Virus record (IMG/VR): IMGVR_UViG_3300010352_001202
Length of the DNA: 64,000 bases
Strand: one strand, 5' to 3'
Source of the DNA: a virus
Taxonomy: Duplodnaviria > Caudoviricetes
Part shown: in pieces, positions 36,865-49,323 of the stretch
Numbering within the stretch: the first letter of the stretch is position 1
How the letters are laid out: each line of letters opens with the position of its first letter
Translations under genes and position numbers: made by a program
The notes under the pieces: model-generated
What the model saw: the letters and a program-made list of their open reading frames with translations, nothing else
Databases searched by the model: none
What the model was told of the DNA's origin: nothing

Positions 36865-36924
36865 AAAGTGTTCATTCAGCAATCCACAAAAATCAACTTT
36901 TAATTGAAAATAAAACGAACACTG
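36865..36924 (+). ncRNA. CAGCAA module 1 carrying a bare anticodon stem-loop (UUU, Lys-like)
   Basis: AGTGTTC/GAACACT stem, CAGCAA 36877-82, TCAA-CTTTTAA-TTGA. Confidence 0.75.
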
Positions 36925-36934
36925 ATTTATTCAT

Positions 36935-37010
36935 GGCGCAGTAGCATAGCGAATTATGCACCTCCCTGTCTAGGAGGCCGACGAGGGTTTGAGTCCCTTC
37001 TGCGTCGCCA
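36935..37010 (+). tRNA. tRNA-Asp(GTC)
   Basis: CCTCC-CTGTCTA-GGAGG, GCCA end. Confidence 0.85.
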
Positions 37011-37113
37011 GTTATGTGAAGAGTATCGAGCTTACCCTCATAAATACTTTTCACAGTTTAGGTAAGGTATAACGTTGCTTATAACAACTCTACGATACCC
37101 AAACACCTTCTTT

Positions 37114-37170
37114 AAAGAGAACCTACAGCAACTAAAAATTTACTGTAAATGAAACCAAATGTGTTCTCTG
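37114..37170 (+). ncRNA. CAGCAA module 2 carrying a bare anticodon stem-loop (GUA, Tyr-like)
   Basis: AGAGAAC/GTTCTCT stem, CAGCAA 37126-31, TTTA-CTGTAAA-TGAA. Confidence 0.75.
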
Positions 37171-37205
37171 TTTTGAATTTGTAAATATTTGTGTTACAAT
37201 GTGCT

Positions 37206-37619
37206 ATGGCACTCATCAAATGTACTCATTGCGGAAATGATAAAAGAACTTATGGCACAAGTGCTAATTTGTTTTGTTCACGGCAATGCGCTAACGATTT
37301 CCAATATGAACAGCGTGTAGCTGAATGGAAATTATCGGGAGAAAGTACAAGAATTAGCGGCACGCCAGGCTGGTTACGCAGATATTTTTTTGAGAAGCAA
37401 AATGGTAAATGCGCCGGATGTTTGAATGATACCTGGCGAGAACAACCCATAACTCTTGAATTAGAACATAAAGATGGTAACAGTGACCATAATAAGGAAG
37501 AGAATTTAGAACTTCTTTGTCCAAATTGTCACAGTCAGTCATCGACTTATAAAGCAAAGAATAAGGGTAATGGAAGACATTATCGAAGACAGCTTTATAA
37601 GGAAGGTAAAAGTTTTTAG
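37206..37619 (+). CDS. HNH endonuclease
   Basis: CAGC..LELEHKDGNSDHNKEENLELLCPNCHSQ. Confidence 0.88.
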   Translation: MALIKCTHCGNDKRTYGTSANLFCSRQCANDFQYEQRVAEWKLSGESTRISGTPGWLRRYFFEKQNGKCAGCLNDTWREQPITLELEHKDGNSDHNKEENLELLCPNCHSQSSTYKAKNKGNGRHYRRQLYKEGKSF

Positions 37620-37692
37620 CTCTGTTAGTTTAGTGATAGAATGCTGGTTTTGTAGTCCAGATGCGGGAGTTTGATTCTCTCACGGAGCACCA
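37619..37692 (+). tRNA. tRNA-Thr(TGT)
   Basis: Loop TTTGTAG, acceptor GCTCTGT/ACGGAGC, ACCA. Confidence 0.8.
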
Positions 37693-37753
37693 CAAAAAGC
37701 TTGATTGATGTATATAAGATCCTGATTCGACACTACGGATATCAAGCACATTT

Positions 37754-37827
37754 CAGGGTATAATGAAATGGTATCATCCCACCTTTGGAGCGTGGAAGCG
37801 GTAGTTCGATTCTACCTACCCTGACCA
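37754..37827 (+). tRNA. tRNA-Pro(TGG)
   Basis: Loop TTTGGAG, C1-G72, ACCA. Confidence 0.85.
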
Positions 37828-37833
37828 GAATTA

Positions 37834-37907
37834 CAGAGTATAATGAAATGGTATCATCCCACCTTCGGAGCGTGGAAGCCCAAGTTCGATTCTTGGTACT
37901 CTGACCA
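37834..37907 (+). tRNA. tRNA-Pro(CGG), tandem paralog of the preceding gene
   Basis: Loop TTCGGAG; near-identical D and anticodon arms. Confidence 0.85.
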
Positions 37908-38013
37908 ATATAACACATAACAGAAAGCACAATATGGAATTTTTAGCATTCAACTTAATCATGATTATGATAATGTTATCAGCAAGTCTTGCTGAACAAC
38001 TTATCTAAGACAT

Positions 38014-38087
38014 GGCTCTGTAGCTCAATGGTAGAGCACGCGACTGATAATCGCGCGACGAAGGTCCGATTCCTTACGGAGCCACCA
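38014..38087 (+). tRNA. tRNA-Ile(GAT)
   Basis: CGCGA-CTGATAA-TCGCG, ACCA. Confidence 0.9.
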
Positions 38088-38093
38088 TACAAT

Positions 38094-38168
38094 GTCCTGT
38101 TCCACTTCGGGTGAGGTGACCTGCCCTTCAAGCAGAGAAGATGGGTTCGACTCCCATACAGGATGCCA
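38094..38168 (+). tRNA. tRNA-Glu(TTC) with C33
   Basis: CTGC-CCTTCAA-GCAG, GCCA end. Confidence 0.75.
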
Positions 38169-38175
38169 AGTTTAC

Positions 38176-38251
38176 GGGTTTGTAACTCAAATGGCTAGAG
38201 TCCTGCCTCTTAAGCAGCGAGATCCCGGTTCGATGCCGGGCGAACCCACCA
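38176..38251 (+). tRNA. tRNA-Lys(CTT)
   Basis: Loop CTCTTAA, ACCA. Confidence 0.85.
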
Positions 38252-38410
38252 AACAACGGTCCGGACAGAGATCCCTAGGATATATTTCCTCTAGACCACC
38301 ATCAAACCGCTTCCACTTGTTTTCTATTGACATATATAAGCCTAGCGGGCCAATTTTGACCTTTCCACATCACTAAATTATATAAGGATAAAAAAAGGTC
38401 TCTTCAAAAT

Positions 38411-38527
38411 GTCGCTGTAGTGTAAAGGTAGCACAACTAAAAAGGTGATCCTGGCAAGGATACATACAGCAATCTACATTCCATTACAAGGAGTAGGTCC
38501 GGTGTTCGATTCCCGCCGGCGGCACCA
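38411..38527 (+). tRNA. tRNA-Val(TAC)-like gene interrupted between D arm and anticodon arm by a 42-nt CAGCAA module (module 3)
   Basis: Acceptor GTCGCTG/CGGCGGC-ACCA, D arm to 38435, insert 38436-38477, ATTCC-ATTACAA-GGAGT, T loop TTCGATT. Confidence 0.75.
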
Positions 38528-38556
38528 TTGACAAGGTTGAGACTGCATGTAATACT
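38528..38556 (+). promoter_or_regulatory. Possible sigma70 promoter for the vWA gene
   Basis: TTGACA followed 16-17 nt later by TAATACT. Confidence 0.5.
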
Positions 38557-38589
38557 TAGTGCTCAACTTACACACCCTGAAAGGTACAC

Positions 38590-39609
38590 ATGAAGAACTA
38601 CATTGGTATTAGTCGTGACCATAGCGGCTCCATGAGCATGATTGCTAATGCAGCAGCCCGCGATTACAACGACAACATCGCTTCCATTAAGGAAGAAGCC
38701 GGCTCGTTCAACATTGACACTATTGTAAGTGTCATTAAGTGTGGAACTGGTCGCCCTGCGCAAAACCGCTGGGATGTTCAGAATTCGAATGTTACGGCGC
38801 TGAAGCCGCTGACTTCGTACATTGCAGACGGTAACTGCACTCCGCTGTTCGACAGCGTGATGATGCTTATCGACCAAATGGAAAGCGTCCCTGACGCAGC
38901 TGATCCTGAAGTTTCGTTCATGGTTATGGTCGTTACTGACGGCCAGGACAATGCTTCAAACACCAAGGGTCCGCAACTGGCGCAACGCATCAAGTCGCTT
39001 CAGGCAACTGATCGTTGGACTTTCGTCTTCCGTGTTCCGAAGGGCGACAAGGCTCCTCTGGTTCGAATGGGTCTCCCGGCAGGTAACATCCTGGAATGGG
39101 AACAAACCGAACGCGGTGTTCAGCAAGCAACTGTTGCTACCAAGTCGGCTATGCGTGGTTTCTACGCTGCTCGCTCCACTGGTGCAACCAGCACTGACAA
39201 GTTCTACGCCGACATGAGCACTACCACCTTGAATGAAGTGAAGGCCGCCCTGGTTGATATTTCCAAGGAAGTGGATGTGTATGTGGTTGATACGAAGAAC
39301 GACGGTGTCTAAATCAAGGACTTTGTGCTTGCGCAAGGTGTTACCTTTACCAAGGGCTGCGCGTTCTATGAACTGAGCAAGACCGAAACTGTGCAAGAAT
39401 ACAAGCAGATCGCCATCCGTGACAAGATTACGGGCGCTGTCTACAGCGGTTTCGCAGCACGAGATTTGCTTGGTTTGCCGCACTACGGTGAAGTAAAACT
39501 TGCTCCGGGCCAGCACGGTCAGTACAACATCTTCGTCCAGTCGACCTCCATCAACCGCAAGTTGGTGAAGGGCACGAATGTGATGATTTGGACTGCTGTA
39601 ACGGTCTAA
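38590..39609 (+). pseudogene. vWA-domain protein with a single in-frame TAA (39310-39312); pseudogene, sequencing error or readthrough
   Basis: MIDAS motif DHSGSM, TPLFD, VVTDGQDNAS; frame continues past TAA (IKDFVLAQ..AFYELSKTE..) with the same codon style. Confidence 0.7.
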
Positions 39610-39769
39610 GAAACATTAGAGTATGAGATGTATTATAACCATATCCACTACTCTACAGAACATAAGATAGATAACCGGGCCTTGATCATGCAAATCTGTT
39701 GTAAAACAGTAGGTTATCCGTAAGTCGCGGAAGTCAGGACGCCGCGTTATAAATGCGTGGCACGAATAT

Positions 39770-39844
39770 GCGGGTGTGGTGTCAGTGGTAGCATCATAGT
39801 CTTCCAAACTAAAGGTGCGGGTTCGATTCCCGCCATCCGCTCCA
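39770..39844 (+). tRNA. tRNA-Gly(TCC)
   Basis: Loop CTTCCAA, U73-CCA. Confidence 0.9.
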
Positions 39845-39860
39845 AATAGAAAGTATCAAA

Positions 39861-40187
39861 ATGTTTAACTGGTTCAAGTTTAAGCCCAAAGAAGATTGGC
39901 GTCTTGTTAAGACTATTGTCGATGATGTATCTCGCAATAGTGGTAAAGAAAAAGGTAAATTCTATTACCATCTGTTTGAATCTAGTCGTGGAAATAGGCG
40001 CGTAGAGTTTGCTTCTACATTTAGCGATCTGGATAAGGAAGCTTTAGAAAAAGCCGGAAAGCATTTTGACACATATCAAGATATGATTTATCGTTGGGAG
40101 CATGGTCGTGTAGATCCTAACATTCCGCGATATGATCAGATCCCCGAAGAAGAGACAGTAAATGTCCTAAAGGGCAAGATTTCGTAA
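39861..40187 (+). CDS. Hypothetical protein
   Basis: 108-aa ORF between RNA genes. Confidence 0.6.
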   Translation: MFNWFKFKPKEDWRLVKTIVDDVSRNSGKEKGKFYYHLFESSRGNRRVEFASTFSDLDKEALEKAGKHFDTYQDMIYRWEHGRVDPNIPRYDQIPEEETVNVLKGKIS

Positions 40188-40209
40188 TTGTGTGAGGCCT
40201 CACACAAAT

Positions 40210-40297
40210 ATTCGCGTAGTTTAAACGAAAACACCTGCTATTAGGGCATTCAGTTGTTCCAGCAGTAGATATGGGGTTTGGACCCATAGCGACTCTA
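40210..40297 (+). tRNA. Degenerate tRNA-like element with enlarged anticodon arm
   Basis: D-like arm GTTT-AAACG-AAAAC, CTGCT/AGCAG stem closing a 21-nt loop, ATGGG/CCCAT arm, no CCA. Confidence 0.35.
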
Positions 40298-40332
40298 TAA
40301 TCGAAGATCGCTTATTAAATGACAACGATAGA

Positions 40333-40551
40333 GTGACATTTAAGATGCATGATCCTCATAGTAACACTGTTAGAAGATCTTATAATTCAGATAACATAGA
40401 TTTAATTGCGTTATATATTCCCGAACTAAAAGAAATAGCTTTAATTCCTATAGACAAGTTTACCACAAATGATGCGGTTGTTAGAGTTAAGGAATTAGTA
40501 GTAAAAAGAAAAAATGCAGCAATATTGTTTTCGGACTTTATTGTATGGTAA
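40333..40551 (+). pseudogene. C-terminal fragment of a PD-(D/E)XK homing-type endonuclease
   Basis: RRSYNSDNIDLIALYIPELKEIALIP resembles the C half of this family; N half absent. Confidence 0.5.
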
Positions 40552-40556
40552 GTTAT

Positions 40557-40631
40557 GCCCGGTTAGCTCAATGATAGAGCAATTGCTTGATAGGCGATAG
40601 GTTGTAGGTTTGACTCCTACACTGGGTACCA
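40557..40631 (+). tRNA. tRNA-Ile(GAT), second copy
   Basis: ATTGC-TTGATAG-GCGAT, ACCA. Confidence 0.8.
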
Positions 40632-40637
40632 AACAAT

Positions 40638-40709
40638 AGTGTATCTCCGTGCGGACTTCAATCCTTGTTGCGGAACGAAGACTAGGTTAGAAACCTATAT
40701 ACACTGCCA
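40638..40709 (+). ncRNA. D-armless tRNA-like RNA with GGA-CTTCAA-TCC hairpin
   Basis: AGTGTAT/ATACACT acceptor + GCCA, TAGG-TTAGAAA-CCTA T-like arm. Confidence 0.5.
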
Positions 40710-40715
40710 GAGTAT

Positions 40716-40781
40716 TGATGTATCCAGTGGCTGTAGGCTTCGACTAGGAGCATAGACTAGGTTCGATTCCTATATACATCA
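40716..40781 (+). ncRNA. tRNA-like RNA (acceptor + T arm), paralog of the preceding element
   Basis: TGATGTAT/ATACATCA helix, AGACTAGGTTCGATTCCTAT. Confidence 0.5.
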
Positions 40782-40792
40782 GACAAAACAAT

Positions 40793-40871
40793 TCCGCAGA
40801 AACCGAGCAAGGTGCATGGTCTTGACTGTTAATCAATGGTTAGAGTGGTTCGATTCCACTGTGCGGAGCCA
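40793..40871 (+). tRNA. tRNA-Asn(GTT)
   Basis: TTGA-CTGTTAA-TCAA, GCCA end. Confidence 0.88.
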
Positions 40872-40880
40872 GATTTTTAT

Positions 40881-40953
40881 ATGTTTATGGTGCAGTGGCA
40901 GCACTCCCTCCTTCCCAGAGGGCGACCGGGGTTCGAATCCCTGTAAACTTCTA
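40881..40953 (+). tRNA. Degenerate tRNA-Gly(TCC)-like gene without CCA
   Basis: CCCTC-CTTCCCA-GAGGG and GGTTCGAATCC; weak acceptor stem. Confidence 0.5.
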
Positions 40954-41052
40954 TAAAACAAATGTAGAGTATTGTGTGGCCACACAATACCTAAGCAGGA
41001 GTATAGCAAGTTCCAAGGGGGAATCGTTTGCATCCTACTCCGAATCTATTAT

Positions 41053-41126
41053 GAGTCATAAGTGTTACGGTAGCACATCAGTCTCCAAAACTGAGGGCCG
41101 GGGTTCGACTCCCTGACGACTCGCCA
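41053..41126 (+). tRNA. tRNA-Trp(CCA)
   Basis: TCAGT-CTCCAAA-ACTGA, G73-CCA; U11-A24. Confidence 0.9.
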
Positions 41127-41176
41127 ACAATCCGACTTTAGCTGATGTGGTCATAGCGCCTGTCATAAATATAATT

Positions 41177-41833
41177 ATGAACTATCGGCAATTTAGTAAT
41201 AAATGGATATGTAATCTTTGTGAGCGATCGTTCTCTAGCAGACAGGCCACTACATCTCATATCTACAGGGCACATACCGAGCCCGGCGTCTCGCTTGGCG
41301 GCCATAAAAAAGGCAAACCCGCATGGAACAAAGGGCTTTCTAAGGAAACAGATGCAAGGGTGGCCGAAAATGCTATTGCGGTTTCCTTAGCAACTAAGGG
41401 TCGTCCGGGACATCCGCAAACAGAGGAATCCAAAAGAAAGATAAGTCTATCTAAGTCTATCAATAATAAGGGCGGCAGATGTAAATGGTTTGAGATTGCC
41501 GGCCAGAAAGTTCAGGGGACTTGGGAACGAGATATTACACTAAAGTTTGAAGAACTTAATATCAAATGGCAGAAGCTAAAAACAAATCAACATACATTTG
41601 ATTATGTAATGGATTCTAAAACAAGATGTTATACACCGGATTTTTATCTTCCGCAATACGGCATATACCTAGAAATAAAAGGTCGCTGGTGGGGTAGAGA
41701 TAGAGAAAAAATGGATATTGTTATGAAAACATATCCTGATAAAAAGATTGTTATTATAGAAAAACAAGATTATGAAAAGATTTTGCGAGGTGAGCTAGTG
41801 TGGTCATTCCAGCGGCTGCCTGAAGAGCAGTAG
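41177..41833 (+). CDS. PD-(D/E)XK homing endonuclease with C2H2 finger and NUMOD3-like motif
   Basis: CNLC..H..AH; AWNKGLSK; YTPDFYLP..YLEIKG. Confidence 0.82.
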   Translation: MNYRQFSNKWICNLCERSFSSRQATTSHIYRAHTEPGVSLGGHKKGKPAWNKGLSKETDARVAENAIAVSLATKGRPGHPQTEESKRKISLSKSINNKGGRCKWFEIAGQKVQGTWERDITLKFEELNIKWQKLKTNQHTFDYVMDSKTRCYTPDFYLPQYGIYLEIKGRWWGRDREKMDIVMKTYPDKKIVIIEKQDYEKILRGELVWSFQRLPEEQ

Positions 41834-41863
41834 AACCAGGTTCGATTCCTGGACCTCGCACCA
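41785..41863 (+). tRNA. tRNA-Phe(GAA), overlapping the endonuclease 3' end
   Basis: GCTGC-CTGAAGA-GCAGT, ACCA. Confidence 0.85.
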
Positions 41864-41943
41864 ACATATTGTTCGATTCCTGGAGGTCGGGCCAGGTTTA
41901 CTCTTCCTCGAGATAAATAAAAGTATAATCTCGGAGAGAAAAC

Positions 41944-42864
41944 ATGAACATTATCAAAAGTGTTTCTATCATTTTAGTTTCAGTAGTTGCGTTAGCTGGT
42001 TGTGCTTCAACACATGATTACCAGATGTATGCGCAAGGACAGGCACAAATCGAAGCAGCAAAGTATGCTGCCGAAGCAGCTCGCTTCAAGGCAATGTCAG
42101 ATATTGCAGCAAGCGGCGATCCAACAGCAAAGGTGGCAGCAGTAGTTGCCCTAGCAATGACAGGCAATGGTTCTGGCGGTAATTCGGGTAATGCAGCTCA
42201 ACTAAGAGCCCCCGAAGCACCTGGACAAACAGCACTTGCGTGGGCAAGCATCTTTGTTCCTGCATTGACACAAGGCTATAGCATCTATTCCAACACAAGA
42301 CTTGGAATGGCACAGAGCAACAACAATGCTCGCGTAGCAGAAAGCACAAACGGTGCATTCCTTGGAATGGCTGGACAAATTCAATCAACAGCAACAAGTG
42401 GTAACGCCGCTCTTGCACAGTTAGGAACATCGAGCAATACTGCTATTACAGCGGTTGCTGGTGCAGGAACACAGGCGCTAACTTCGCTTGCAACTTCGAG
42501 CAACCAGTCGCTTGTATCGCTATCAAGCTTAATTCAAGCACCGCAACCTAATGTAAGTTATACATTGAGCGGTACTGGTGTTCTAGGTAACGGAACATAT
42601 ACAACCACAGCTAACTCGTTAGGTGGCAATGGTGTAATTGGTTCTGGTTCATATAGCACACAACAGAATCCAGTACTGAGCGGAACTGGTGTTATTGGTA
42701 GTGGAACACATAATCCATCTACAGTAACAACACCTGCTCCTGTAGTTATTACTCCTGTTGTAACAACACCACCTGTTGTTATTACACCAGTAAACAATGT
42801 TACTCCAGTAGTTATTACTCCTGTGGTTGTAACACCGCCAGCAGCGGCTGCATCAGCACCGTAA
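41944..42864 (+). CDS. Lipoprotein with low-complexity P/V/T tail
   Basis: Signal peptide with lipobox LAGC; LSGTGVIG repeats; PVVITP repeats. Confidence 0.75.
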   Translation: MNIIKSVSIILVSVVALAGCASTHDYQMYAQGQAQIEAAKYAAEAARFKAMSDIAASGDPTAKVAAVVALAMTGNGSGGNSGNAAQLRAPEAPGQTALAWASIFVPALTQGYSIYSNTRLGMAQSNNNARVAESTNGAFLGMAGQIQSTATSGNAALAQLGTSSNTAITAVAGAGTQALTSLATSSNQSLVSLSSLIQAPQPNVSYTLSGTGVLGNGTYTTTANSLGGNGVIGSGSYSTQQNPVLSGTGVIGSGTHNPSTVTTPAPVVITPVVTTPPVVITPVNNVTPVVITPVVVTPPAAAASAP

Positions 42865-43753: not shown

Positions 43754-43920
43754 CATTCTACAACGGGTTGCAGAGAGTGCAACATTATCAAACCGCTGTG
43801 GAGGCGTTGGCAGCCCACTATACTCGGAGAGCCATATTCGAGTGTTTAGTCCTTTAATGGATGAGGCCCTCGGCACCCTGTCGGTCTGGTGGAGGCAGGA
43901 TAGAAGCTAACTGTAGAATG
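43754..43920 (+). ncRNA. Candidate structured ncRNA, unidentified
   Basis: Closed by CATTCTACA/TGTAGAATG with several internal hairpins; sits between tRNAs. Confidence 0.45.
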
Positions 43921-43931
43921 AACTATTCAAT

Positions 43932-44008
43932 GCCCCCGTACGCTAATTGGTAGTGCGGTCTGATTCAAAATCATATGGTTGTAGGTTCGAATCCAACCGG
44001 GGGTACCA
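43932..44008 (+). tRNA. tRNA-Leu(CAA), short variable loop
   Basis: Loop TTCAAAA; body nearly identical to the 42917 gene. Confidence 0.8.
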
Positions 44009-44030
44009 AAAATATTACGATAAATATAGG

Positions 44031-44723
44031 ATGATCCTAAATTTAGCAAACGGTAATCTAAGCACGGTATTAGACTTTTCTATACCTACCACACTTCCCG
44101 AAGTAGGAAGTATTAACAACATATCTGTATTTTCGTCCGGCGGACTTGATTCGGGTGCATTGTTATGTTTGATAATGTCGGAACTTAAGGCAACAGGTCA
44201 GCTCGACACATTACCGGTAACCTGCTACACAGGTATAAAATACGACGGTGCAACATATTATGCATCGCGTCTGGTATCAAAGATAGCAGAACATTTTTCG
44301 TGTAACATTATTCATAACAACAATGTCGAAAACGATGTTGTAGAGACAGGCCGATTCAGATTTATTGCATCAACTGAACCCAATACCGTTGTGTATGCAG
44401 GTATCAGTCGAATGGTGCCAGAATCGGTAAAAGAATTTAAGAATAAGCTAAAGGTAAAGTATCCAAACGAATTTGGAAAATACAAGTTTCCTTTTTTGAA
44501 TATGGCAAAGCCACAGATACTAGATATCTATTATAAGCTTGGTTGTGAAGACATTATACAATACACGCATTCGTGTGTAAATTTAGCTGTAAGTAAATGC
44601 AATAATTGCTATTCATGCGAAGAGCGAGCCTGGGCATTTACAGAGTTAATGAAATCTGATACAGGGACTGTGCCACCGGATGTAGTAGACATATCCTACA
44701 ACGGCACTTGGCAAGTTTCGTAA
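44031..44723 (+). CDS. QueC-like N-type ATP pyrophosphatase
   Basis: PP-loop SGGLDS; PFLNMAK.QI; THSC..CNNCYSCEER zinc site. Confidence 0.75.
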   Translation: MILNLANGNLSTVLDFSIPTTLPEVGSINNISVFSSGGLDSGALLCLIMSELKATGQLDTLPVTCYTGIKYDGATYYASRLVSKIAEHFSCNIIHNNNVENDVVETGRFRFIASTEPNTVVYAGISRMVPESVKEFKNKLKVKYPNEFGKYKFPFLNMAKPQILDIYYKLGCEDIIQYTHSCVNLAVSKCNNCYSCEERAWAFTELMKSDTGTVPPDVVDISYNGTWQVS

Positions 44724-44726
44724 CAT

Positions 44727-44822
44727 GGGATCTGTGTCCTGCTCGGCCCTAGGCGCATATGCTGAGAAAGGCTTGGAGTAAGCCGTATAGGCCGGCGGGT
44801 TCGAACCCCGTAGGTTCCACCA
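44727..44822 (+). tRNA. Atypical tRNA-like RNA with Ala acceptor identity
   Basis: GGGATCT/AGGTTCC-ACCA (G3-U70, A73), normal T arm, CTGAGAA followed by an extra hairpin in the anticodon region. Confidence 0.55.
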
Positions 44823-44830
44823 AAGTCAAT

Positions 44831-44873
44831 GGGCCCATAGAAGTCACTATTCTATACACCTTTAGGTCCACCA
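44831..44873 (+). ncRNA. 43-nt minihelix-like RNA with Ala identity and CCA
   Basis: GGGCCCA/TAGGTCC-ACCA enclosing a single hairpin. Confidence 0.5.
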
Positions 44874-44879
44874 AATATC

Positions 44880-44952
44880 GGGCCGCAAAATGCTTGCAAA
44901 CTAAAACTTTTCGGCAGAATTACACCAGGGTCGCGCCCTGGGCGGTCCACCA
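44880..44952 (+). tRNA. Degenerate tRNA-Ala-like RNA
   Basis: GGGCCGC/GCGGTCC-ACCA (G3-U70), CCAGG/CCTGG arm, CTTGCAA but no D arm. Confidence 0.5.
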
Positions 44953-44995
44953 ATAATAGTCTGCGTATGATAAGCAAAGAACAGACCTACTTTAC

Positions 44996-45071
44996 GCCGA
45001 TGTAGCTCAGTGGGTAGAGCGGCAGCCTGAAAAGTTGCGCGTCACTGGTTCGATTCCAGTCTTCGGCACCA
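44996..45071 (+). tRNA. tRNA-Phe(GAA)
   Basis: GCAGC-CTGAAAA-GTTGC, canonical body, ACCA. Confidence 0.93.
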
Positions 45072-45097
45072 ATCACTAAGACATAGTCTTATAAAAC

Positions 45098-45168
45098 GCA
45101 ATAGTAGCTTCAAGGGTAGAGCGCAACCGCAAAGGCGAGGTTATAGGTTCGAGTCCTGTCTATTGTAG
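45098..45168 (+). tRNA. Degenerate tRNA-like gene with collapsed anticodon arm, no CCA
   Basis: GCAATAG/CTATTGT acceptor, D arm and GGTTCGAGTCC present. Confidence 0.45.
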
Positions 45169-45177
45169 AAAATTTAT

Positions 45178-45254
45178 GCCCGGAGAGCGCAGCTGGCGAA
45201 GCCATCCTCCTTACAAGTGGAAATTGTAGAGTTCGATTCTCTATCCGGGTACCA
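45178..45254 (+). tRNA. tRNA-Val(TAC)
   Basis: Loop CTTACAA, ACCA. Confidence 0.85.
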
Positions 45255-45258
45255 TATT

Positions 45259-45351
45259 GGGTGATGATGCAGAGCGGCCTCTGTCCCTGTCTTGAAAACA
45301 GATGTATCGATGATGAGTCGGTAGGCGATCGACACGACCCCTCACCCGCCA
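45259..45351 (+). tRNA. tRNA-Ser(TGA)
   Basis: CTGT-CTTGAAA-ACAG, long variable arm, G73-CCA; divergent T arm. Confidence 0.75.
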
Positions 45352-45361
45352 TAAATATAAT

Positions 45362-45703
45362 ATGTTCAGCGTATTTTTCAAACTTTATAACCGTCCTGGC
45401 ACAAATGTTCCTGTAGGATTTCGTACAGGCCATACCGATATACCGTATAAAGTTTTGTTCAGGACGAAGGGCATAACGGTTGATAGAATCTTTATACCTG
45501 CTAGTGCTATAATAGAGTACAGCGGCATGTATCAAGGAGATATTAAGCCGGGATCAGAAGAATGTAGATTTCAAATGGGCAATCCGGACTACCAATATAA
45601 GTTGTATTTGGTAGCAGATAACATGTCAGAAGCCCAAGCAGCACATTTTTCAAAAACATTATCGGAGAAGCTTAGTTCTTCTCAATTATTCATGCGTGCT
45701 TAG
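45362..45703 (+). CDS. Hypothetical protein
   Basis: 113-aa ORF preceded by CATAAATA; stop lies inside the next tRNA. Confidence 0.55.
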   Translation: MFSVFFKLYNRPGTNVPVGFRTGHTDIPYKVLFRTKGITVDRIFIPASAIIEYSGMYQGDIKPGSEECRFQMGNPDYQYKLYLVADNMSEAQAAHFSKTLSEKLSSSQLFMRA

Positions 45704-45767
45704 TTAAATGGTATAATTATTGGTTGCCATCCAGTAGTCAGGAGTTCGATTCTCCTAGCCCGCACCA
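45694..45767 (+). tRNA. tRNA-Gly(GCC)
   Basis: ATTGG-TTGCCAT-CCAGT, ACCA. Confidence 0.82.
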
Positions 45768-45774
45768 AGTTTCT

Positions 45775-45832
45775 AAAGGTTACATTCAGCAAACAAAACT
45801 AACTTTCAATTGGTGAAAAAAACTGTAACCTG
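45775..45832 (+). ncRNA. CAGCAA module 6 carrying a bare anticodon stem-loop (UUC, Glu-like)
   Basis: AGGTTAC/GTAACCT stem, CAGCAA 45787-92, ACTAA-CTTTCAA-TTGGT. Confidence 0.75.
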
Positions 45833-45838
45833 AATTAT

Positions 45839-45914
45839 CGCGTAGTGGCAGAGCGGCTAGAGCGCCTCCCTCATAAGGATGAATACACTGGTTCGAATCC
45901 AGTCTACGCGACCA
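45839..45914 (+). tRNA. tRNA-Met(CAT)
   Basis: Loop CTCATAA, CGCGTAG/CTACGCG-ACCA. Confidence 0.85.
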
Positions 45915-46004
45915 CAGAATTATTGACTCTCAGTGTTTATACTTAGTAAAATTGTGCGGTCGCAGCAATTTTGCTAAATACTTATACAACACACTGGGAA
46001 AATC

Positions 46005-46178
46005 ATGTTAAAGCAAATTATTGAATTCATTAGAGACATTTTCAGATCACAAAGTATGTACGATAGCCTCGATGCATACATTACTGCTCATAATCCGCAG
46101 AACGCCGGCGATGTGGATCGCCTAGAAAAAGAATTCTATCAGCGCCGTTCGATTTCGGCATTTGAAAAATACTATTAA
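46005..46178 (+). CDS. Small protein, possibly DUF3563-like
   Basis: MLKQIIEF..LDAYITAHNPQNAGDVDRLEKEF (57 aa; below the ORF-track cutoff). Confidence 0.55.
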   Translation: MLKQIIEFIRDIFRSQSMYDSLDAYITAHNPQNAGDVDRLEKEFYQRRSISAFEKYY

Positions 46179-46250
46179 TCTCACCGCTAATGGATTAGCG
46201 CCGTCGCTACGAACGATGGCTAGGGGGTTCGAATCCCTCCGGTGGGTCCA
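46178..46250 (+). tRNA. tRNA-Arg(ACG), compact 5' region
   Basis: CCGTCG-CTACGAA-CGATGG, GGTTCGAATCC, CCA. Confidence 0.75.
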
Positions 46251-46255
46251 TTTAT

Positions 46256-46332
46256 ATCTCCATCGTCTAGTGGCTATAGGACGCTTGCCCCTCAAGCAGG
46301 AAAGTCGGGTTCGAATCCCGATGGGGATGCCA
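46256..46332 (+). tRNA. tRNA-Glu(CTC) with C33
   Basis: CTTGC-CCCTCAA-GCAGG, GCCA end. Confidence 0.8.
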
Positions 46333-46339
46333 AATCAGT

Positions 46340-46420
46340 TGGGAGTAAAGTCCGAAGTGGCCCGAGGCGTCTGCCTTTGAAGCAGAAATTTAGCTGGTTC
46401 GAGTCCAGCACTCCCTGCCA
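46340..46420 (+). tRNA. tRNA-Gln(TTG)
   Basis: TCTGC-CTTTGAA-GCAGA, GCCA end. Confidence 0.85.
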
Positions 46421-46428
46421 ATTACAAT

Positions 46429-46503
46429 GTGCCTATCGTCTATCGGTTTAGGACGACACCCTTTCACGGTGTAAAGCGGGGTTCGATTCCTTCTTGGGAT
46501 TAC
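46429..46503 (+). tRNA. tRNA-Glu(TTC) with degenerate 3' end (probable pseudogene)
   Basis: ACACC-CTTTCAC-GGTGT, but acceptor 3' strand mismatched and no CCA. Confidence 0.55.
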
Positions 46504-46510
46504 AGAATAT

Positions 46511-46602
46511 GGATGGCGGGCAGTGCGGCAAATGCAACACCCTGCTAAGGTGTAGGCTTGTGATGAACAGGCCGCTGGGTTCGACTCCCAGGCCATCCTC
46601 CA
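46511..46602 (+). tRNA. tRNA-Ser(GCT)
   Basis: ACACC-CTGCTAA-GGTGT, long variable arm, CCA. Confidence 0.88.
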
Positions 46603-46608
46603 GAGATT

Positions 46609-46929
46609 ATGATAGAATTTACAATAGACAAAGTATATCTAACGTCGTTGACAGTTAGGACTGAATATAAATCAAAGTTTGAGAACACCGAAGAAGGTCT
46701 TGTCGAAGCTTTGAAATATGCCGGTACCTGTTTTATGACAAGTTCAATTGATCATCCTGAGTTTACTAAACTTAGGGAACAGTTGGGCGCCGAGGGATAC
46801 ATTAGCATTCAGCGCGGTTGGTGGAACGGCGATGCTGTTCTTAAACCTTTTAAACTAAACGGTAAGAAGTTTAAGAAAGGTAATCAATTTCCGTCAGCTT
46901 GTGCTATTAAGTGGGTTCTGGAGCATTAA
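46609..46929 (+). CDS. Hypothetical protein
   Basis: 106-aa ORF, first of three coupled ORFs. Confidence 0.6.
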   Translation: MIEFTIDKVYLTSLTVRTEYKSKFENTEEGLVEALKYAGTCFMTSSIDHPEFTKLREQLGAEGYISIQRGWWNGDAVLKPFKLNGKKFKKGNQFPSACAIKWVLEH

Positions 46930-47097
46930 ATGACAAGTAGAACTATCGATATTCATTGTGAAGCATGTAGAAAATATCTATTTTCGCTTCAGCCCAATGA
47001 TAGTAAAGGTCTAGCAAAGGATTATTACTGTAAGGCTAAGACTTGCCAGATGCAGGCAACTGTAGATAAGCTAAAGAAAGAACCAGATGTCAAATGA
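46930..47097 (+). CDS. Small Cys-rich hypothetical protein
   Basis: MTSRTIDIHCEAC..YYCKAKTC; abuts both neighbours. Confidence 0.5.
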   Translation: MTSRTIDIHCEACRKYLFSLQPNDSKGLAKDYYCKAKTCQMQATVDKLKKEPDVK

Positions 47098-47398
47098 TAC
47101 AGCGGACAAGATAAAGAATTATGTCGATCACATTGATGATCACATAGCAATGGCGCTTAACCTAGCACAACAGATGCAGGCAGTGGTCCTAGAGACCGAA
47201 GGCGACAGTGATTTGAACCGTAAATTGGCGTTTTACCTAATCCCGAACCTAACACATTGGGTCGCGGGAGCCCAGGCGGGCAATATGAAGGATTTAAAGG
47301 AAACATTAGCAAGGCGACTTGCTACTCAGGAGAGCAATATGTTACAATCGCAGCAAGGCGAAGGACACGACGTCCTAACTAAACCTTCGAAAACCTGA
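47087..47398 (+). CDS. Hypothetical protein
   Basis: 103-aa helical ORF. Confidence 0.6.
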   Translation: MSNDTADKIKNYVDHIDDHIAMALNLAQQMQAVVLETEGDSDLNRKLAFYLIPNLTHWVAGAQAGNMKDLKETLARRLATQESNMLQSQQGEGHDVLTKPSKT

Positions 47399-47402
47399 CA
47401 AG

Positions 47403-47476
47403 GGGCTCGAAGCTTTAAGGTGAAGCATCGGACTTTTAATCCGATGAAGAGGGGTCAGTACCCTCCGGGCCTACCA
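47403..47476 (+). tRNA. tRNA-Lys(TTT), abnormal T loop
   Basis: TCGGA-CTTTTAA-TCCGA, ACCA. Confidence 0.8.
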
Positions 47477-47486
47477 ATTTTACATT

Positions 47487-47560
47487 GGGGGCATGACGTA
47501 GTGGTAGCGTCTCTGGCTTTTACCCAGATGGCCACAGTTCGATTCTGTGTGCCCCTACCA
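47487..47560 (+). tRNA. tRNA-Lys(TTT), second divergent copy
   Basis: TCTGG-CTTTTAC-CCAGA, ACCA. Confidence 0.82.
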
Positions 47561-47568
47561 AAATTTAT

Positions 47569-47994
47569 ATGTATAAGAATAGTAAGAAACAAGGCGATGC
47601 CGGATTAGGACAAGCAATAGCATATTTCACTAAACTGGGATATGAAGTTGCAATTCCGCTAACCGACAGTGCCGATTGGGATCTTATTGTTGAGATTGAT
47701 AGTGCGTTGAAGAAGATACAGGTCAAGACAAGTTCTCAAATAAGAGAAGGCGTCGAGATTTTTCAGGCCGATGTTAAGGGTGGAAATAAAACTTCTTCAA
47801 CAAAGAAGAGTATACAGGAACAAGATTGGGATTTAATATTTCTTCATCATCTTGTTACTGGAAAGCAGGCTCTTATTCCCAAAACTGCATTGACCACAAA
47901 AGGTCAAATTAATCTTGGGAATAAGTATCAGCAGTATTTCATTGGGGATGTAGTCCTGTATGGAGCAGGGGGAGACTGTAAATCTCTTGCCTAA
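47569..47994 (+). CDS. PD-(D/E)XK homing-type endonuclease
   Basis: KQGDAG..YEVAIPLTD..WDLIVE..KIQVKT; 3' end runs into the tRNA-Tyr gene. Confidence 0.82.
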   Translation: MYKNSKKQGDAGLGQAIAYFTKLGYEVAIPLTDSADWDLIVEIDSALKKIQVKTSSQIREGVEIFQADVKGGNKTSSTKKSIQEQDWDLIFLHHLVTGKQALIPKTALTTKGQINLGNKYQQYFIGDVVLYGAGGDCKSLA

Positions 47995-48029
47995 CGGCCC
48001 AGTTGGTTCGATTCCAGCTATCCCCACCA
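47944..48029 (+). tRNA. tRNA-Tyr(GTA), second copy
   Basis: GGAGA-CTGTAAA-TCTCT, long variable arm, ACCA. Confidence 0.85.
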
Positions 48030-48036
48030 AGTTTCT

Positions 48037-48101
48037 AAAGAGTGCTTCCAGCAAACACAAAAATTTCAAAACCATTATCTTTGAAAAGAAAAAGCATTCT
48101 G
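48037..48101 (+). ncRNA. CAGCAA module 7 carrying a CAU-loop hairpin
   Basis: AGAGTGC/GCATTCT stem, CAGCAA 48049-54, TTTCAAA-ACCATTATC-TTTGAAA. Confidence 0.7.
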
Positions 48102-48109
48102 AATATATT

Positions 48110-48283
48110 ATGGACGACGAACTAAAACAACTTGTCAAAGAATTCTTCCGTATCTTAGATATTGTAGAAGAAACAGACGAAGGTAGAGAGTTTCGTCCTA
48201 CCAACATTTATTCATCTAGGGCATTAGATGGAGCAAAGCTCAATACAGTGCTTTCTAAGATGAAAGAAATTGTAAAGGATTAA
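48110..48283 (+). CDS. Small hypothetical protein
   Basis: MDDELKQLVKEFFRILD..; coupled to the next gene. Confidence 0.55.
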   Translation: MDDELKQLVKEFFRILDIVEETDEGREFRPTNIYSSRALDGAKLNTVLSKMKEIVKD

Positions 48284-48285
48284 TC

Positions 48286-48669
48286 ATGGCACACAAGATA
48301 GCAATCATAACATCGAGAGATTTCTATTCAGGCGATTACGACGAAACTCATTCAAGTATCATCGAGAGCATCACTGAATGGGAAGAAGTAACCGACGACG
48401 AATATAAGACACTGCAATTTGCAGCACCGCGTCTAGGATTTACTATGCTCGAACAGCCGACTGAGCCAAAGAAATTCATTGCTAAGACCATCGCCGACTA
48501 TAAGGCTATTGCTAAGGCAGAAGCAGAGCGTGCAGCAGCCGACAAGCTAGCACGAGAGGAAGCAGCTCTTCAGCGCAAGTTTAAGAAAGAATTAAAGGAC
48601 AAGGCATCTAAGGAAAAGATGCTAGCAAAGCTTTCAGCAGAGCTTGGTGTCCAAATAGTTAAAGTCTAA
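48286..48669 (+). CDS. Hypothetical protein with C-terminal coiled coil
   Basis: 127-aa ORF with AAGGA SD. Confidence 0.6.
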   Translation: MAHKIAIITSRDFYSGDYDETHSSIIESITEWEEVTDDEYKTLQFAAPRLGFTMLEQPTEPKKFIAKTIADYKAIAKAEAERAAADKLAREEAALQRKFKKELKDKASKEKMLAKLSAELGVQIVKV

Positions 48670-48747
48670 GAAGCCAATCCGAGGGTTGGTGGTATGTCCG
48701 CGACTGTGAATCAAAGGGCCTGCTACATTATTAGACTATTTTGATTT

Positions 48748-49146
48748 TGATGTATAGGGTCATATGCAGCCTCGGGGCACCGAACTAGCTATTCGGAAAG
48801 CAATCGTTGCAAATTATGGAAAACCTTAGCCCGGCTAATCAACTACTGTGTTATTTGGGGGCATCTTGAATAACGCACGAGTTTCCAGGTGGAGTACACA
48901 TAATGCCAGCTGTCGGAGTGTACGAAAGTTGATTATACATCATTTTGAATCTTTGATATAGAGTGGGGCAGAGTGTAATAGCTGCTGCATAAGATACCCA
49001 TTACAGGAAGTCTACACGACATGAGAGTACGGAGGTAGCATCTTTCGTAACATGAGTCCAGGGTAGATAAGACCACTGCTATGGTCCTACCAAGGTAGAT
49101 TCTATATCATACCCGCATAAAATCCGGCCGGCACTTATGCGGTTTT
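48748..49146 (+). ncRNA. Two adjacent candidate structured ncRNAs plus a terminal hairpin
   Basis: TGATGTATA/TATACATCA (48748/48942) and TGATATAGAGT/ATTCTATATCA (48954/49109) closing helices; CCGCATAA/TTATGCGG-TTTT. Confidence 0.5.
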
Positions 49147-49152
49147 AACATT

Positions 49153-49229
49153 GCCCCTGTACGCTAATTGGTAGTGCGGACAGACTTAAAATCTGTTGGT
49201 TCCCGGTTCGAATCCGGGGAGGGGTACCA
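49153..49229 (+). tRNA. tRNA-Leu(TAA), short variable loop
   Basis: ACAGA-CTTAAAA-TCTGT, ACCA. Confidence 0.85.
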
Positions 49230-49237
49230 AATTTTCT

Positions 49238-49323
49238 AAAGAATTCTTCCAGCAACATCCTATGGATAAAATTGGTTCAACTCCAATACGCGCCTGTAAC
49301 AGGGCGGGTTTAAAAGAATTCTG
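49238..49323 (+). ncRNA. CAGCAA module 8 carrying a T-arm-like and a CTGTAAC-containing hairpin
   Basis: AGAATTC/GAATTCT stem, CAGCAA 49250-55, ATTGG-TTCAACT-CCAAT. Confidence 0.7.

What the first reader, a model, noticed from the sequence alone, without database searches (positions are those of the whole stretch)
36865..49323. New RNA module: covarying stem + CAGCAA scaffold carrying tRNA parts (8 copies)
Seen: copies at 36865, 37114, 38436, 42998, 43117, 45775, 48037 and 49238. Each has a 6-7 bp stem that differs in sequence but keeps pairing (AGTGTTC/GAACACT, AGAGAAC/GTTCTCT, AGGATAC/GTGATCCT, GGGATG/CATCCC, AGGTTCG/CGAACCT, AGGTTAC/GTAACCT, AGAGTGC/GCATTCT, AGAATTC/GAATTCT), then 2-4 nt, invariant CAGCAA, mostly A-rich linkers, and a G after the stem. 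Cargo is tRNA-derived: bare 7-nt anticodon loops CTTTTAA (Lys), CTGTAAA (Tyr), CTTTCAA (Glu), two ACCAT(A/T)ATC loops, T-arm hairpins, or a whole permuted tRNA. Five begin 7-11 nt after a tRNA CCA. I do not recognise a described family. Inference: (a) decoys or tripwire sensors for anticodon nucleases, held by a CAGCAA-binding protein, or (b) a minimal splicing/circularisation signal for a phage nuclease-ligase.
Basis: partly seen in the sequence, partly recalled or inferred. Interest (0 to 1): 0.95.

Follow-up and report, generated by a model that had tools for sequence, protein, structure and literature searches.

The report
Phage small RNAs for Ro60-like protein
The eight repeats are genes for small folded RNAs, hidden among a giant phage's tRNA genes, that share one "handle" and carry imitation tRNA parts. 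They are most likely partners of a ring-shaped Ro60-like RNA-binding protein, and they look strikingly like RNAs thought to exist only in social amoebae.

Summary
The window is a jumbo myophage from activated sludge, and all eight copies lie inside its tRNA array. Seven have a terminal stem (A-G-N5 / N5-C-U, then G; six pairs in one copy), three or four bases, invariant CAGCAA, and A-rich linkers. The eighth (38411-38528) is the same handle circularly permuted inside a tRNA-shaped RNA.

The family recurs in close relatives and the stem covaries: 100% of cells paired, 5 of 7 pairs compensatory. The cargo does imitate tRNA parts. CUNNNAA loops occur about 40 times more often than in shuffles.

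It is not without precedent. 17 copies hit Rfam's Dictyostelium Class I RNA model full-length but below threshold, and they share its defining end and motif features.

Both complete relatives (capsid 95-98% identical) encode a DUF2828/DUF7788 protein, and the one I modelled folds like Ro60. In 80 distant phage loci holding that gene, handle RNAs lie on the gene's strand 140 to 10.

Best reading: Y-RNA-like partners of a phage Ro60-like protein. Binding and expression are untested, and the gene lies beyond this contig's end. The decoy idea stays open; the splicing idea has no support.

This scan has reported the same family before, on other DNA.

The parts
36867..36924 (+). Handle RNA copy 1. 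Stem AGUGUUC/GAACACU, AUU, CAGCAA. Inner hairpin with the loop CUUUUAA (Lys-UUU-like). Starts 8 nt after the CCA of a probable tRNA-Ala.
   Evidence: CM R1 69.1 bits. RF01414 31.6 bits.
37116..37170 (+). Handle RNA copy 2. Stem AGAGAAC/GUUCUCU, CUA, CAGCAA. Loop CUGUAAA (Tyr-GUA-like). An HNH gene follows.
   Evidence: R1 63 bits. RF01414 23.7 bits. The ortholog in L115 has CUGAAAA instead.
38411..38528 (+). tRNA-shaped RNA with acceptor stem, D-arm, T-loop and an encoded CCA. Its anticodon arm is replaced by the circularly permuted handle: 3' strand ending CUG at 38445-38453, loop GCA, 5' strand AGGAUAC at 38457-38463, AUA, CAGCAA at 38467-38472.
   Evidence: Conserved in G001 and G002, with a G-C to A-U compensatory change at acceptor pair 1-72. 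Weak Rfam tRNA hit, 22.4 bits.
43000..43102 (+). Handle RNA copy 4. 6-bp stem GGGAUG/CAUCCC, GUUG, CAGCAA. Hairpin with the 9-nt loop ACCAUAAUC, plus a T-arm-like hairpin (UUCGAGU).
   Evidence: Partial R1 hit at G000:25580-25639, which is window 42998-43057.
43119..43235 (+). Handle RNA copy 5. The terminal stem closes a permuted tRNA body: T-arm (UUCGAAU), an acceptor-like helix capped by a loop, and a D-arm-like part. This is the same topology as bacterial YrlA.
   Evidence: z -2.05. RF01414 22.4 bits and an Rfam tRNA partial hit of 23.9 bits. The same design lies upstream of the DUF2828 gene in G002.
45777..45832 (+). Handle RNA copy 6. Stem AGGUUAC/GUAACCU, AUU, CAGCAA. Loop CUUUCAA (Glu-UUC-like). 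Starts 9 nt after the tRNA-Gly CCA.
   Evidence: R1 71.2 bits. RF01414 36.0 bits, E 9e-4, full length. Orthologs in L069, L125 and L112.
48039..48101 (+). Handle RNA copy 7. Stem AGAGUGC/GCAUUCU, UUC, CAGCAA. A 7-bp hairpin with the 9-nt loop ACCAUUAUC. Starts 9 nt after the tRNA-Tyr CCA.
   Evidence: R1 61.5 bits. RF01414 22.8 bits. Near-identical ortholog in G002 (L128).
49240..49323 (+). Handle RNA copy 8. Stem AGAAUUC/GAAUUCU, UUC, CAGCAA. Three inner hairpins, one T-arm-like (UUCAACU). Starts 10 nt after the tRNA-Leu CCA.
   Evidence: R1 31.7 bits. Fold z -3.23. Ortholog in G001 (L134:475-569).
35860..49409 (+). tRNA array that hosts all the copies: 29 tRNAs called by ARAGORN, two more by Rfam only, all on the + strand. 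It is interspersed with homing-endonuclease genes.

Best explanation
The eight elements are genes for small non-coding RNAs of one family. They are probably made from the tRNA-array transcripts and cut out like tRNAs.

Each RNA has two parts. The first is a constant "handle": a 6-7-bp terminal helix that starts A-G and ends C-U-G, followed by unpaired N-U-N-CAGCAA. The second is a variable module built from tRNA look-alike parts. This can be an anticodon stem-loop, a T-arm, or a whole tRNA body, either closed at the acceptor end or opened there with a CCA.

The handle is most likely the binding site for the phage's Ro60-like ring protein (DUF2828/DUF7788). That would make these RNAs the functional counterparts of Y RNAs, of the bacterial YrlA type. 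By analogy with Ro60/Y RNA particles, the variable module would then gate the ring or tether it to proteins that recognise tRNA: nucleases, modification or repair enzymes.

Shown here:
- the family exists and its helix covaries;
- the cargo has tRNA-part character;
- the partner protein has a Ro60 fold;
- the RNA and the gene travel together across distant phages.

Inferred: binding, processing and the downstream role.
For: (1) The family is real. Relatives G001 and G002 (capsid 98% and 95% identical) carry 5-6 copies each. Further contigs carry them too. The helix covaries fully.

(2) The partner gene is present in the relatives. Both complete relatives encode one DUF2828/DUF7788 protein. The AF2 model of the G002 protein (pLDDT 90.9) has Ro60/TROVE proteins as its 13 best PDB matches over the full length, including Thermus phage phiLo Ro60 (E 8e-10 to 1e-6).

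(3) The RNAs sit next to the gene. In G002, two handle RNAs lie within 600 nt upstream of the gene; one is a closed tRNA mimic whose CAGCAA box is degenerate. A minimal 40-nt handle lies directly before the start codon.

(4) The association holds in distant phages. In 80 viral loci with 47-83% identical homologs of the gene, the clade-specific model gave 50 hits, all on the gene's strand, in 31 loci. Many lie within 100 nt of the gene. A model-free grammar scan gave 140 hits on the gene's strand against 10 on the other, in 55 of 80 loci.

(5) A small genome-level check points the same way. Ci1 and phiM19 have the gene and have handle hits. T4 and T5 have tRNA arrays but neither the gene nor handles.

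(6) The topology matches YrlA: terminal helix plus tRNA-like body in copy 5, and an opened form with CCA in copy 3. The opened form resembles RNase-P-cut, CCA-tailed M. smegmatis YrlA.

(7) There is literature precedent. phiLo Ro60 binds two Y-like RNAs encoded upstream of its gene. The Ro60-like gp130 of Bas63 sits before its tRNA array, and its authors guessed that some of those "tRNAs" are Y RNAs.
Against: The window's own 99-kb record holds no DUF2828 gene. I explain this by truncation: in G001 the gene lies about 20 kb past the homolog of the window's end, while the contig ends 4.6 kb past it. That is an inference.

In this clade most handle RNAs lie 30-47 kb from the gene.

The handle lacks the GNCGAA motif of known bacterial Y RNAs, and Rfam YrlA does not match.

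There are no binding data for this family.

Bas63 gp130 alone, moved into T7, overcame the Ppl defence. So at least that effect needs none of its own phage's RNAs.

The gene and tRNA arrays usually sit together, so part of the co-occurrence could come through the arrays.
Confidence: 0.6

Rival explanations
1. Anticodon-arm decoys or sensors. The inner CUNNNAA hairpins imitate the anticodon arms that defence nucleases cut. They would soak up or report enzymes such as PrrC, PARIS AriB, RloC or PtuAB, with the handle only as a scaffold. This can coexist with the Ro60-like partner model.
For: 35 of 154 distinct family members carry a 7-nt CUNNNAA loop on a stem of at least 4 bp, against 0.82 in shuffles.

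Position 34 is U or G in 23 of 27 distinct hairpins and A only once, as in real anticodons, despite A-rich sequence.

Triplets include UUU, UGU and GUU, the three AriB targets. 10 of 27 hairpins have the U36-A-A-U39 string found at AriB's cleavage sites.

Orthologous copies keep the stem but change the triplet: UUU here against UGU in G001, and GUA here against GAA in L115.

The relatives encode an RtcB RNA ligase.
Against: Three quarters of members have no such loop and carry T-arms, whole tRNA mimics or other hairpins instead.

The stems are 4-5 weak A-U pairs and are not predicted by energy folding.

The triplets are spread over 18 different anticodons, with no focus on known targets.

AriB needs contacts far from the anticodon loop.

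No nuclease test exists.
Confidence: 0.2
2. The copies are decayed tRNA genes, or processing spacers of the tRNA operon. They would be acceptor-like helices that help RNase P or RNase E cut the long precursor, with no protein partner of their own.
For: The copies start 6-10 nt after a tRNA CCA, at the spacing of the next tRNA in the array. The terminal helix is 7 bp, like an acceptor stem. The cargo is tRNA-derived.
Against: Decay does not explain an invariant CAGCAA, invariant A-U and G-C first pairs, and a CUG end kept across phages whose partner proteins are only 47-55% identical.

Handles also sit directly before the DUF2828 start codon, away from tRNAs.

T4 and T5 process their tRNA arrays without them.
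Confidence: 0.12
3. The module is a minimal self-cleaving, splicing or circularisation signal for a phage nuclease-ligase.
For: One copy is a circular permutation of the others, and the relatives encode RtcB.
Against: No ribozyme or intron family matched, even at E up to 5. The conserved part is an unpaired hexamer next to a plain helix.

The permuted order is written in the DNA of three phages, so no RNA rearrangement is needed to explain it.
Confidence: 0.03

Closest known systems
Class I RNAs of dictyostelid social amoebae (Rfam RF01414; Kjellin et al. 2021, PMC7919456)
   Same: Both are about 55-65 nt. Both have a 6-bp covarying helix joining the ends that starts with an invariant G preceded by AA. 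Both have an unpaired motif ending in CAGCAA right after the 5' strand, A-rich inner sequence, and a 3' end of C-U-G-(U).

17 phage copies hit the Rfam model over its full length. Four of five published Class I sequences pass the grammar I used for the phages.
   Different: All scores (22-36 bits) lie under the family's 41.5-bit threshold.

The spacer between helix and CAGCAA is 3 nt in the phages and 4 in the amoebae.

The phage copies have no DUSE promoter. They sit in phage tRNA operons.

The phage encodes no RRM protein like Rnp1A/CIBP.

Long forms with tRNA parts are not described for Class I. Class I RNAs were reported as unique to Dictyostelia.
Bacterial and phage Y RNAs bound by Ro60/Rsr: YrlA/YrlB (Rfam RF02553; Chen et al. 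2014, PMC4201824) and Yrl1/Yrl2 of Thermus phage phiLo (PMC12135203)
   Same: Both are small RNAs whose 5' and 3' ends form a helix. They are encoded beside or near a gene for a Ro60-fold protein, in several copies per genome, and some have a tRNA-like body in the same topology.
   Different: The protein is DUF2828/DUF7788 and is not recognised by the TROVE model.

The handle motif is CAGCAA, not GNCGAA, and Rfam YrlA does not match.

Many members carry only an anticodon-arm or T-arm look-alike.

Binding is untested.
Bas63 gp130, a Ro60-like protein that counters the Ppl defence (PhageMaP preprint, 10.1101/2024.10.10.617714)
   Same: A Ro60-like phage protein encoded at a tRNA array. Its authors proposed that some annotated tRNAs there may be Y RNAs. 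Felix-O1-type phages are among the 710 cultured phage records with homologs of the protein studied here.
   Different: The preprint defines no RNA, handle or family. gp130 acted without its phage's RNAs when moved into T7. I did not compare gp130 itself with the protein modelled here.
Small stable RNAs of phage tRNA clusters: T4 species 1 and 2 (rnaC, rnaD) and T5 RNAI, RNAIII, RNA1-3
   Same: They are non-tRNA small RNAs lying between phage tRNA genes. Some are tRNA-like and their function is unknown.
   Different: Neither the T4 nor the T5 region contains the handle, and neither phage has the DUF2828 gene.

Membership tests
Dictyostelium Class I RNA (RF01414) | Score at or above Rfam's gathering threshold (41.5 bits) | tested here: not met
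   The best window copy scores 36.0 bits. The others score 22-32, and relatives' copies 24-34. All hits are full-length, 1-56 of 56.
Dictyostelium Class I RNA (RF01414) | Short covarying helix joining the 5' and 3' ends. Its first G is invariant, pairs with C, and is preceded by AA. | tested here: met
   UAAAG is invariant in 23 of 23 distinct copies, the G-C pair is invariant, and 5 of 7 pairs covary.
Dictyostelium Class I RNA (RF01414) | 11-nt motif CCUUACAGCAA next to the 5' strand, with U3, C6, C9, A10 and A11 near-invariant | tested here: inconclusive
   CAGCAA is kept in 21 of 23 distinct clade copies, with single-base variants in two, and the middle spacer base is mostly U. The spacer is one base shorter.
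Dictyostelium Class I RNA (RF01414) | 3' end CUGU, with C pairing to the 5' G | tested here: met
   The end is CUG(A/U) in seven window copies; the 43000 copy ends CCCG. In the 80 distant loci 97 of 140 hits end CUGU (86 read CUGUU).
Dictyostelium Class I RNA (RF01414) | DUSE promoter element upstream | tested here: not met
   The copies begin 6-10 nt after a tRNA CCA, inside a bacteriophage tRNA operon. By the sequence shown there is no room for an own upstream element of that kind.
Dictyostelium Class I RNA (RF01414) | Partner RRM protein Rnp1A/CIBP | tested here: not met
   No RRM_1 match over the cut-off in G000-G004.
Y RNA / YrlA (RF02553) | Encoded next to a gene for a Ro60 ortholog | tested here: inconclusive
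   A Ro60-fold DUF2828 gene with adjacent handle RNAs is present in relative G002 and in 55 of 80 distant loci. It is absent from the window's truncated record. The protein does not match the TROVE model.
Y RNA / YrlA (RF02553) | Conserved Ro-binding motif GNCGAAN(0-1)G in the stem region, or a match to the Rfam model | tested here: not met
   No RF02553 hit at E up to 5-10. The conserved motif here is CAGCAA.
Y RNA / YrlA (RF02553) | tRNA-like domain in at least one RNA per genome | tested here: met
   Copies at 43119-43235 (closed) and 38411-38528 (open, with CCA).
Y RNA / YrlA (RF02553) | Physically bound by the Ro60 protein | not testable with these tools
   This needs immunoprecipitation or a gel shift.

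The most novel reading that the evidence does not exclude
The phage handle RNAs and the dictyostelid Class I RNAs are one family by descent, exchanged between viruses and bacterivorous amoebae. They would be the RNA subunits of a second, DUF2828-type branch of the Ro60/Y-RNA particle that spans phages and eukaryotes. In that case Class I RNAs, whose function is unknown, would be amoebal Y-like RNAs. The unknown protein DDB_G0281243, which was pulled down with Class I RNA DdR-21, would be worth checking as the Ro60-like partner. Separately, the phage's anticodon-arm cargo would aim this particle at tRNA-cutting defence enzymes.
Probability: 0.2. Interest if true: 0.9.

Novelty: new variant of a known kind. 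Interest (0 to 1): 0.7.

Why it matters
Ro60/Y-RNA particles are a classic RNA-surveillance machine, but few phage examples have been studied. This work points to a large, unannotated RNA family. It has several genes per genome, and the protein partner occurs in at least 710 cultured phage records and about 6,000 protein clusters. That would give many "hypothetical" DUF2828 phage proteins an RNA subunit.

The family also offers a testable link between tRNA arrays, tRNA mimicry and counter-defence.

Finally, it gives the first outside relative, or a striking look-alike, for the Class I RNAs of Dictyostelium. Those RNAs were published as unique to that group, and their function is an open question.

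On the practical side, these genes are missed by tRNA finders and Rfam and deserve a covariance model.

Tried and rejected
- Megablast of the region against cultured phages found no match.
- My first own-genome pattern had one N too many and found only a chance hit.
- The other CAGCAA sites in the array (35434, 37980, 39121, 40517, 45963, 47351, 49827) are not handles.
- The Pfam TROVE model found nothing in G000-G004.
- The RRM model found nothing over its cut-off.
- The T4-type RNA ligase model rang nowhere, controls included, so that search says nothing.
- Sequence-only PDB searches gave just weak Ro60 and TROVE hits (E 0.04-0.2). Fold comparison was needed.
- The vWA gene inside the array (38590-39609, phrog_26613) looked like a possible partner but shows no sequence similarity to the DUF2828 protein.
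- RNA evidence: no RNA holder was listed for this DNA. The only full holders are two activated-sludge DNA runs that may be its source, so I did not lay reads.
- I could not settle whether Dictyostelium has a DUF2828 protein or whether DDB_G0281243 is one. The search for long forms returned only fungal and dinoflagellate proteins. No paper or supplement describes the protein, and Avesson 2011 is not held.
- Energy folding does not recover the short A-U anticodon-like hairpins.
- I did not use complex prediction, because it does not take RNA.

Full report
**What the window is.** The window lies in a 99-kb IMG/VR virus record rated 26% complete. It encodes an HK97-type major head protein, a tail sheath and other myophage structural proteins. 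Positions 35860-49409 hold 29 tRNA genes called by ARAGORN, with two more found only by Rfam. A two-piece tmRNA lies at about 62971-63373. Homing-endonuclease genes are scattered through the array. Two complete relatives of 385 kb and 364 kb (G001, G002) have capsid proteins 98% and 95% identical to the window's, so this is a jumbo phage clade. The only runs that hold the DNA in full are activated-sludge metagenomes.

**The observation.** All eight copies exist. Seven read as follows: leader (U)UCUAA; a 7-bp helix starting A-G (6 bp in the 43000 copy); three bases with U mostly in the middle (four in the 43000 copy); CAGCAA; an A-rich linker; one to three hairpins; a second A-rich linker; the closing strand ending C-U; then G(A/U)UU. 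Five of them start 6-10 nt after a tRNA's CCA, which is the spacing of the next tRNA in the array.

No copy occurs outside the array in the 99-kb record.

The eighth copy is the same handle turned inside out. The strand ending CUG is joined by three bases to the strand starting AG, followed by AUA and CAGCAA. This hairpin replaces the anticodon arm of a tRNA-shaped RNA with its own acceptor stem and encoded CCA (38411-38528). The element is conserved in G001 and G002. The first acceptor pair changes from G-C to A-U in G002, and G001 has a perfect T-arm.

**It is a real RNA family.** A pattern scan of viral contigs followed by a stem filter found the module, with different helix sequences, in seven other contigs. 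A covariance model built from 12 short copies found 5-6 copies in each complete relative. On 23 distinct copies, every one of 161 cells pairs. Five of seven pairs show changes on both sides, and the first two pairs (A-U, G-C) never vary. Sliding the partner strand drops pairing to 32-53%.

**The cargo.** I collected 154 distinct members from this phage, its relatives and 80 distant loci. Hairpins with a 7-nt CUNNNAA loop on a stem of at least 4 bp occur 35 times, against 0.82 in shuffles. T-loop-like UUCRANN loops occur 14 times, against 0.15. The middle triplets cover 18 anticodons. Position 34 is U or G in 23 of 27 distinct hairpins and A only once, as in real tRNAs, although the RNAs are A-rich. 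The stems are not copies of the phage's own tRNA anticodon stems, which are G+C-rich.

Orthologous copies keep the stem and change the triplet: UUU here against UGU in G001, and GUA here against GAA in L115. Only about a quarter of members carry such a loop, however, and the 4-bp A-U stems are too weak for energy folding to predict.

Copy 5 (43119-43235) folds as a terminal helix enclosing a T-arm, a capped acceptor-like helix and a D-like arm. This is the YrlA topology.

**A known look-alike.** At relaxed thresholds, five window copies and twelve copies in relatives hit one Rfam family, the Class I RNA of Dictyostelium. The hits cover the model's full length at 22-36 bits, against a threshold of 41.5, and they coincide with hits of my own model.

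The published definition of Class I RNAs has these features: about 60 nt; a 6-bp covarying end helix starting with an invariant G preceded by AA; the motif CCUUACAGCAA beside the 5' strand; and a CUGU 3' end. The phage RNAs fit it, apart from a spacer one base shorter, the lack of the DUSE promoter, and the lack of an RRM partner. Four of five published Class I sequences pass the same grammar I used on the phages. The authors reported Class I RNAs as unique to Dictyostelia. I found no paper mentioning this Rfam family in phages.

**The likely protein partner.** Earlier notes of this scan, on other genomes, said this handle sits beside a Ro60-like DUF2828 gene. I treated that as a lead and tested it.

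- The TROVE model finds nothing in this clade. DUF2828 is found once in each complete relative, together with DUF7788.
- An AlphaFold model of the G002 protein, built on 62 diverse homologs, is confident (pLDDT 90.9, pTM 0.90).
- Its 13 best matches among solved structures are all Ro60/TROVE proteins aligned over the whole length: Thermus phage phiLo, Xenopus, human and Deinococcus. E-values run from 8e-10 to 1e-6, and the next matches are isolated vWA domains.
- In G002 the 600 nt before this gene hold one handle RNA, then a closed tRNA-mimic RNA with the same helix ends but a degenerate CAGCAA box. After a small ORF comes a 40-nt minimal handle that ends just before the ribosome-binding site.
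- I fetched 80 viral loci with homologs of the protein, 47-83% identical. My clade-specific model gave 50 hits in 31 loci, all on the gene's strand and many within 100 nt of its start or end.
- A model-free grammar scan gave 140 hits on the gene's strand and 10 on the other, in 55 of 80 loci. The spacer was nearly always 3 nt, and CUGUU was the commonest 3' end.
- Whole-genome checks agree. Citrobacter phage Ci1 and Sinorhizobium phage phiM19 have the gene and have handle hits. T4 and T5 have tRNA arrays and their own small stable RNAs, but neither the gene nor handles.

The protein family is large: 6,152 clusters at 50% identity and 710 cultured phage records. Some mycobacteriophage annotations already call it "Ro-like RNA binding protein".

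**Why the window itself lacks the gene.** The record has no DUF2828 match. The homolog of the window's last 2 kb lies at G001 148.1-150.1 kb, and the gene lies at 126.5-127.9 kb on the same strand, about 20 kb further on. The window's record ends 4.6 kb past the window. Truncation is therefore the simplest explanation, but it is an inference.

In this clade most handle RNAs sit in the tRNA arrays, 30-47 kb from the gene. Here the link is at the level of the genome, not of the neighbourhood.

**Mechanism.**
- Shown: the RNA family, the covarying helix, the invariant handle, the tRNA-part cargo, the Ro60 fold of the co-travelling protein, and the same-strand association.
- Inferred, step 1: the RNAs are cut from the tRNA-array transcript by the tRNA-processing enzymes. 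The 7-bp helix starts where the next tRNA would, and copy 3 has a true acceptor end.
- Inferred, step 2: the handle binds the ring protein, as Y RNA helices bind Ro60.
- Inferred, step 3: the variable module brings in or blocks proteins that read tRNA shapes.

What those proteins are is open. The literature offers three pointers. In bacteria and in phage phiLo, Y RNA tethers PNPase to Ro60. In bacteria, Ro60 and Y RNA are tied to the RtcB repair operon, and both relatives encode RtcB. Ro60-like gp130 of Bas63 counters the Ppl defence, though there the protein alone sufficed in T7.

The decoy idea fits the anticodon-like loops. UUU, UGU and GUU, the three targets of PARIS AriB, are among them, and 10 of 27 hairpins keep the UAAU string at its cleavage site. 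The triplets are diverse, though, AriB needs contacts beyond the loop, and nothing has been tested.

**Novelty.** Phage Ro60 proteins with Y-like RNAs are known. One preprint guessed that Y RNAs hide in the Bas63 tRNA array. I found no description of this handle family, no Rfam model that captures it, and no report of Class I-like RNAs outside Dictyostelia.

I therefore class it as a new variant of a known kind. This scan has already reported the same family several times on other DNA. What this window adds:
- a jumbo-phage clade with the RNAs dispersed far from the gene;
- a natural circular permutation of the handle;
- family-wide statistics on the anticodon-like cargo;
- the pointer to DDB_G0281243.

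Noticed in passing
window 38590-39609: A vWA/MIDAS gene (phrog_26613) is split by an in-frame TAA at 39310-39312. Both halves match one profile, and the gene is an uninterrupted 343-350-aa ORF in G001 and G002. This could be a pseudogene, a sequencing error or read-through.
   Followed up: partly
window 36784-36859: A probable tRNA-Ala(UGC) that ARAGORN and the Rfam tRNA model both miss; only the tmRNA model hits it, weakly. It has a G3:U70 pair, the loop CUUGCAA, a good T-arm and a CCA. It directly follows a NUMOD3 endonuclease gene (36005-36727). I read it by eye.
   Followed up: partly
L134 (G001:157955-161028): The relative G001 carries an RNase P RNA-like gene (RF00010, 86 bits, under the threshold of 100). 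It also has the 3' part of a GOLLD RNA (71.8 bits, cut off by the locus end). Both lie among tRNAs and next to a handle RNA.
   Followed up: no
window 62971-63373; also L112:6468-6915: A circularly permuted (two-piece, beta-type) tmRNA is encoded by the phage, and another by relative G003.
   Followed up: no
window 43947-44723, 50526-52085, 52600-54138, 54135-54968, 56411-57376: In and after the array lie two B12-binding radical-SAM genes, a MnmA-like HUP-domain gene and a QueC-like gene, with a second, marginal QueC match (E 0.039, below cut-off). This may be a tRNA or DNA base-modification set.
   Followed up: no
window 45098-45167 and 46341-46416: Two tRNA genes are found by Rfam only, not by ARAGORN.
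   Followed up: no
window 48064-48086 and 43027-43045; L128: Two copies carry hairpins with a shared 9-nt loop, ACCAU(U/A)AUC. It is identical in the G002 ortholog. It is neither anticodon-like nor T-loop-like, and I have no explanation for it.
   Followed up: no
L146:995-1034 (G002); many loci at about 5915-5985: A minimal handle (helix plus CAGCAA and a short A-rich loop) sits immediately before the start codon of the DUF2828 gene in several distant phages. This suggests the protein may bind its own mRNA leader.
   Followed up: partly
G001:352957-354102; G002:212810-213937: Both complete relatives encode an RtcB RNA ligase (about 430 bits). In bacteria this enzyme shares an operon with Ro60 and Y RNAs.
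   Followed up: no
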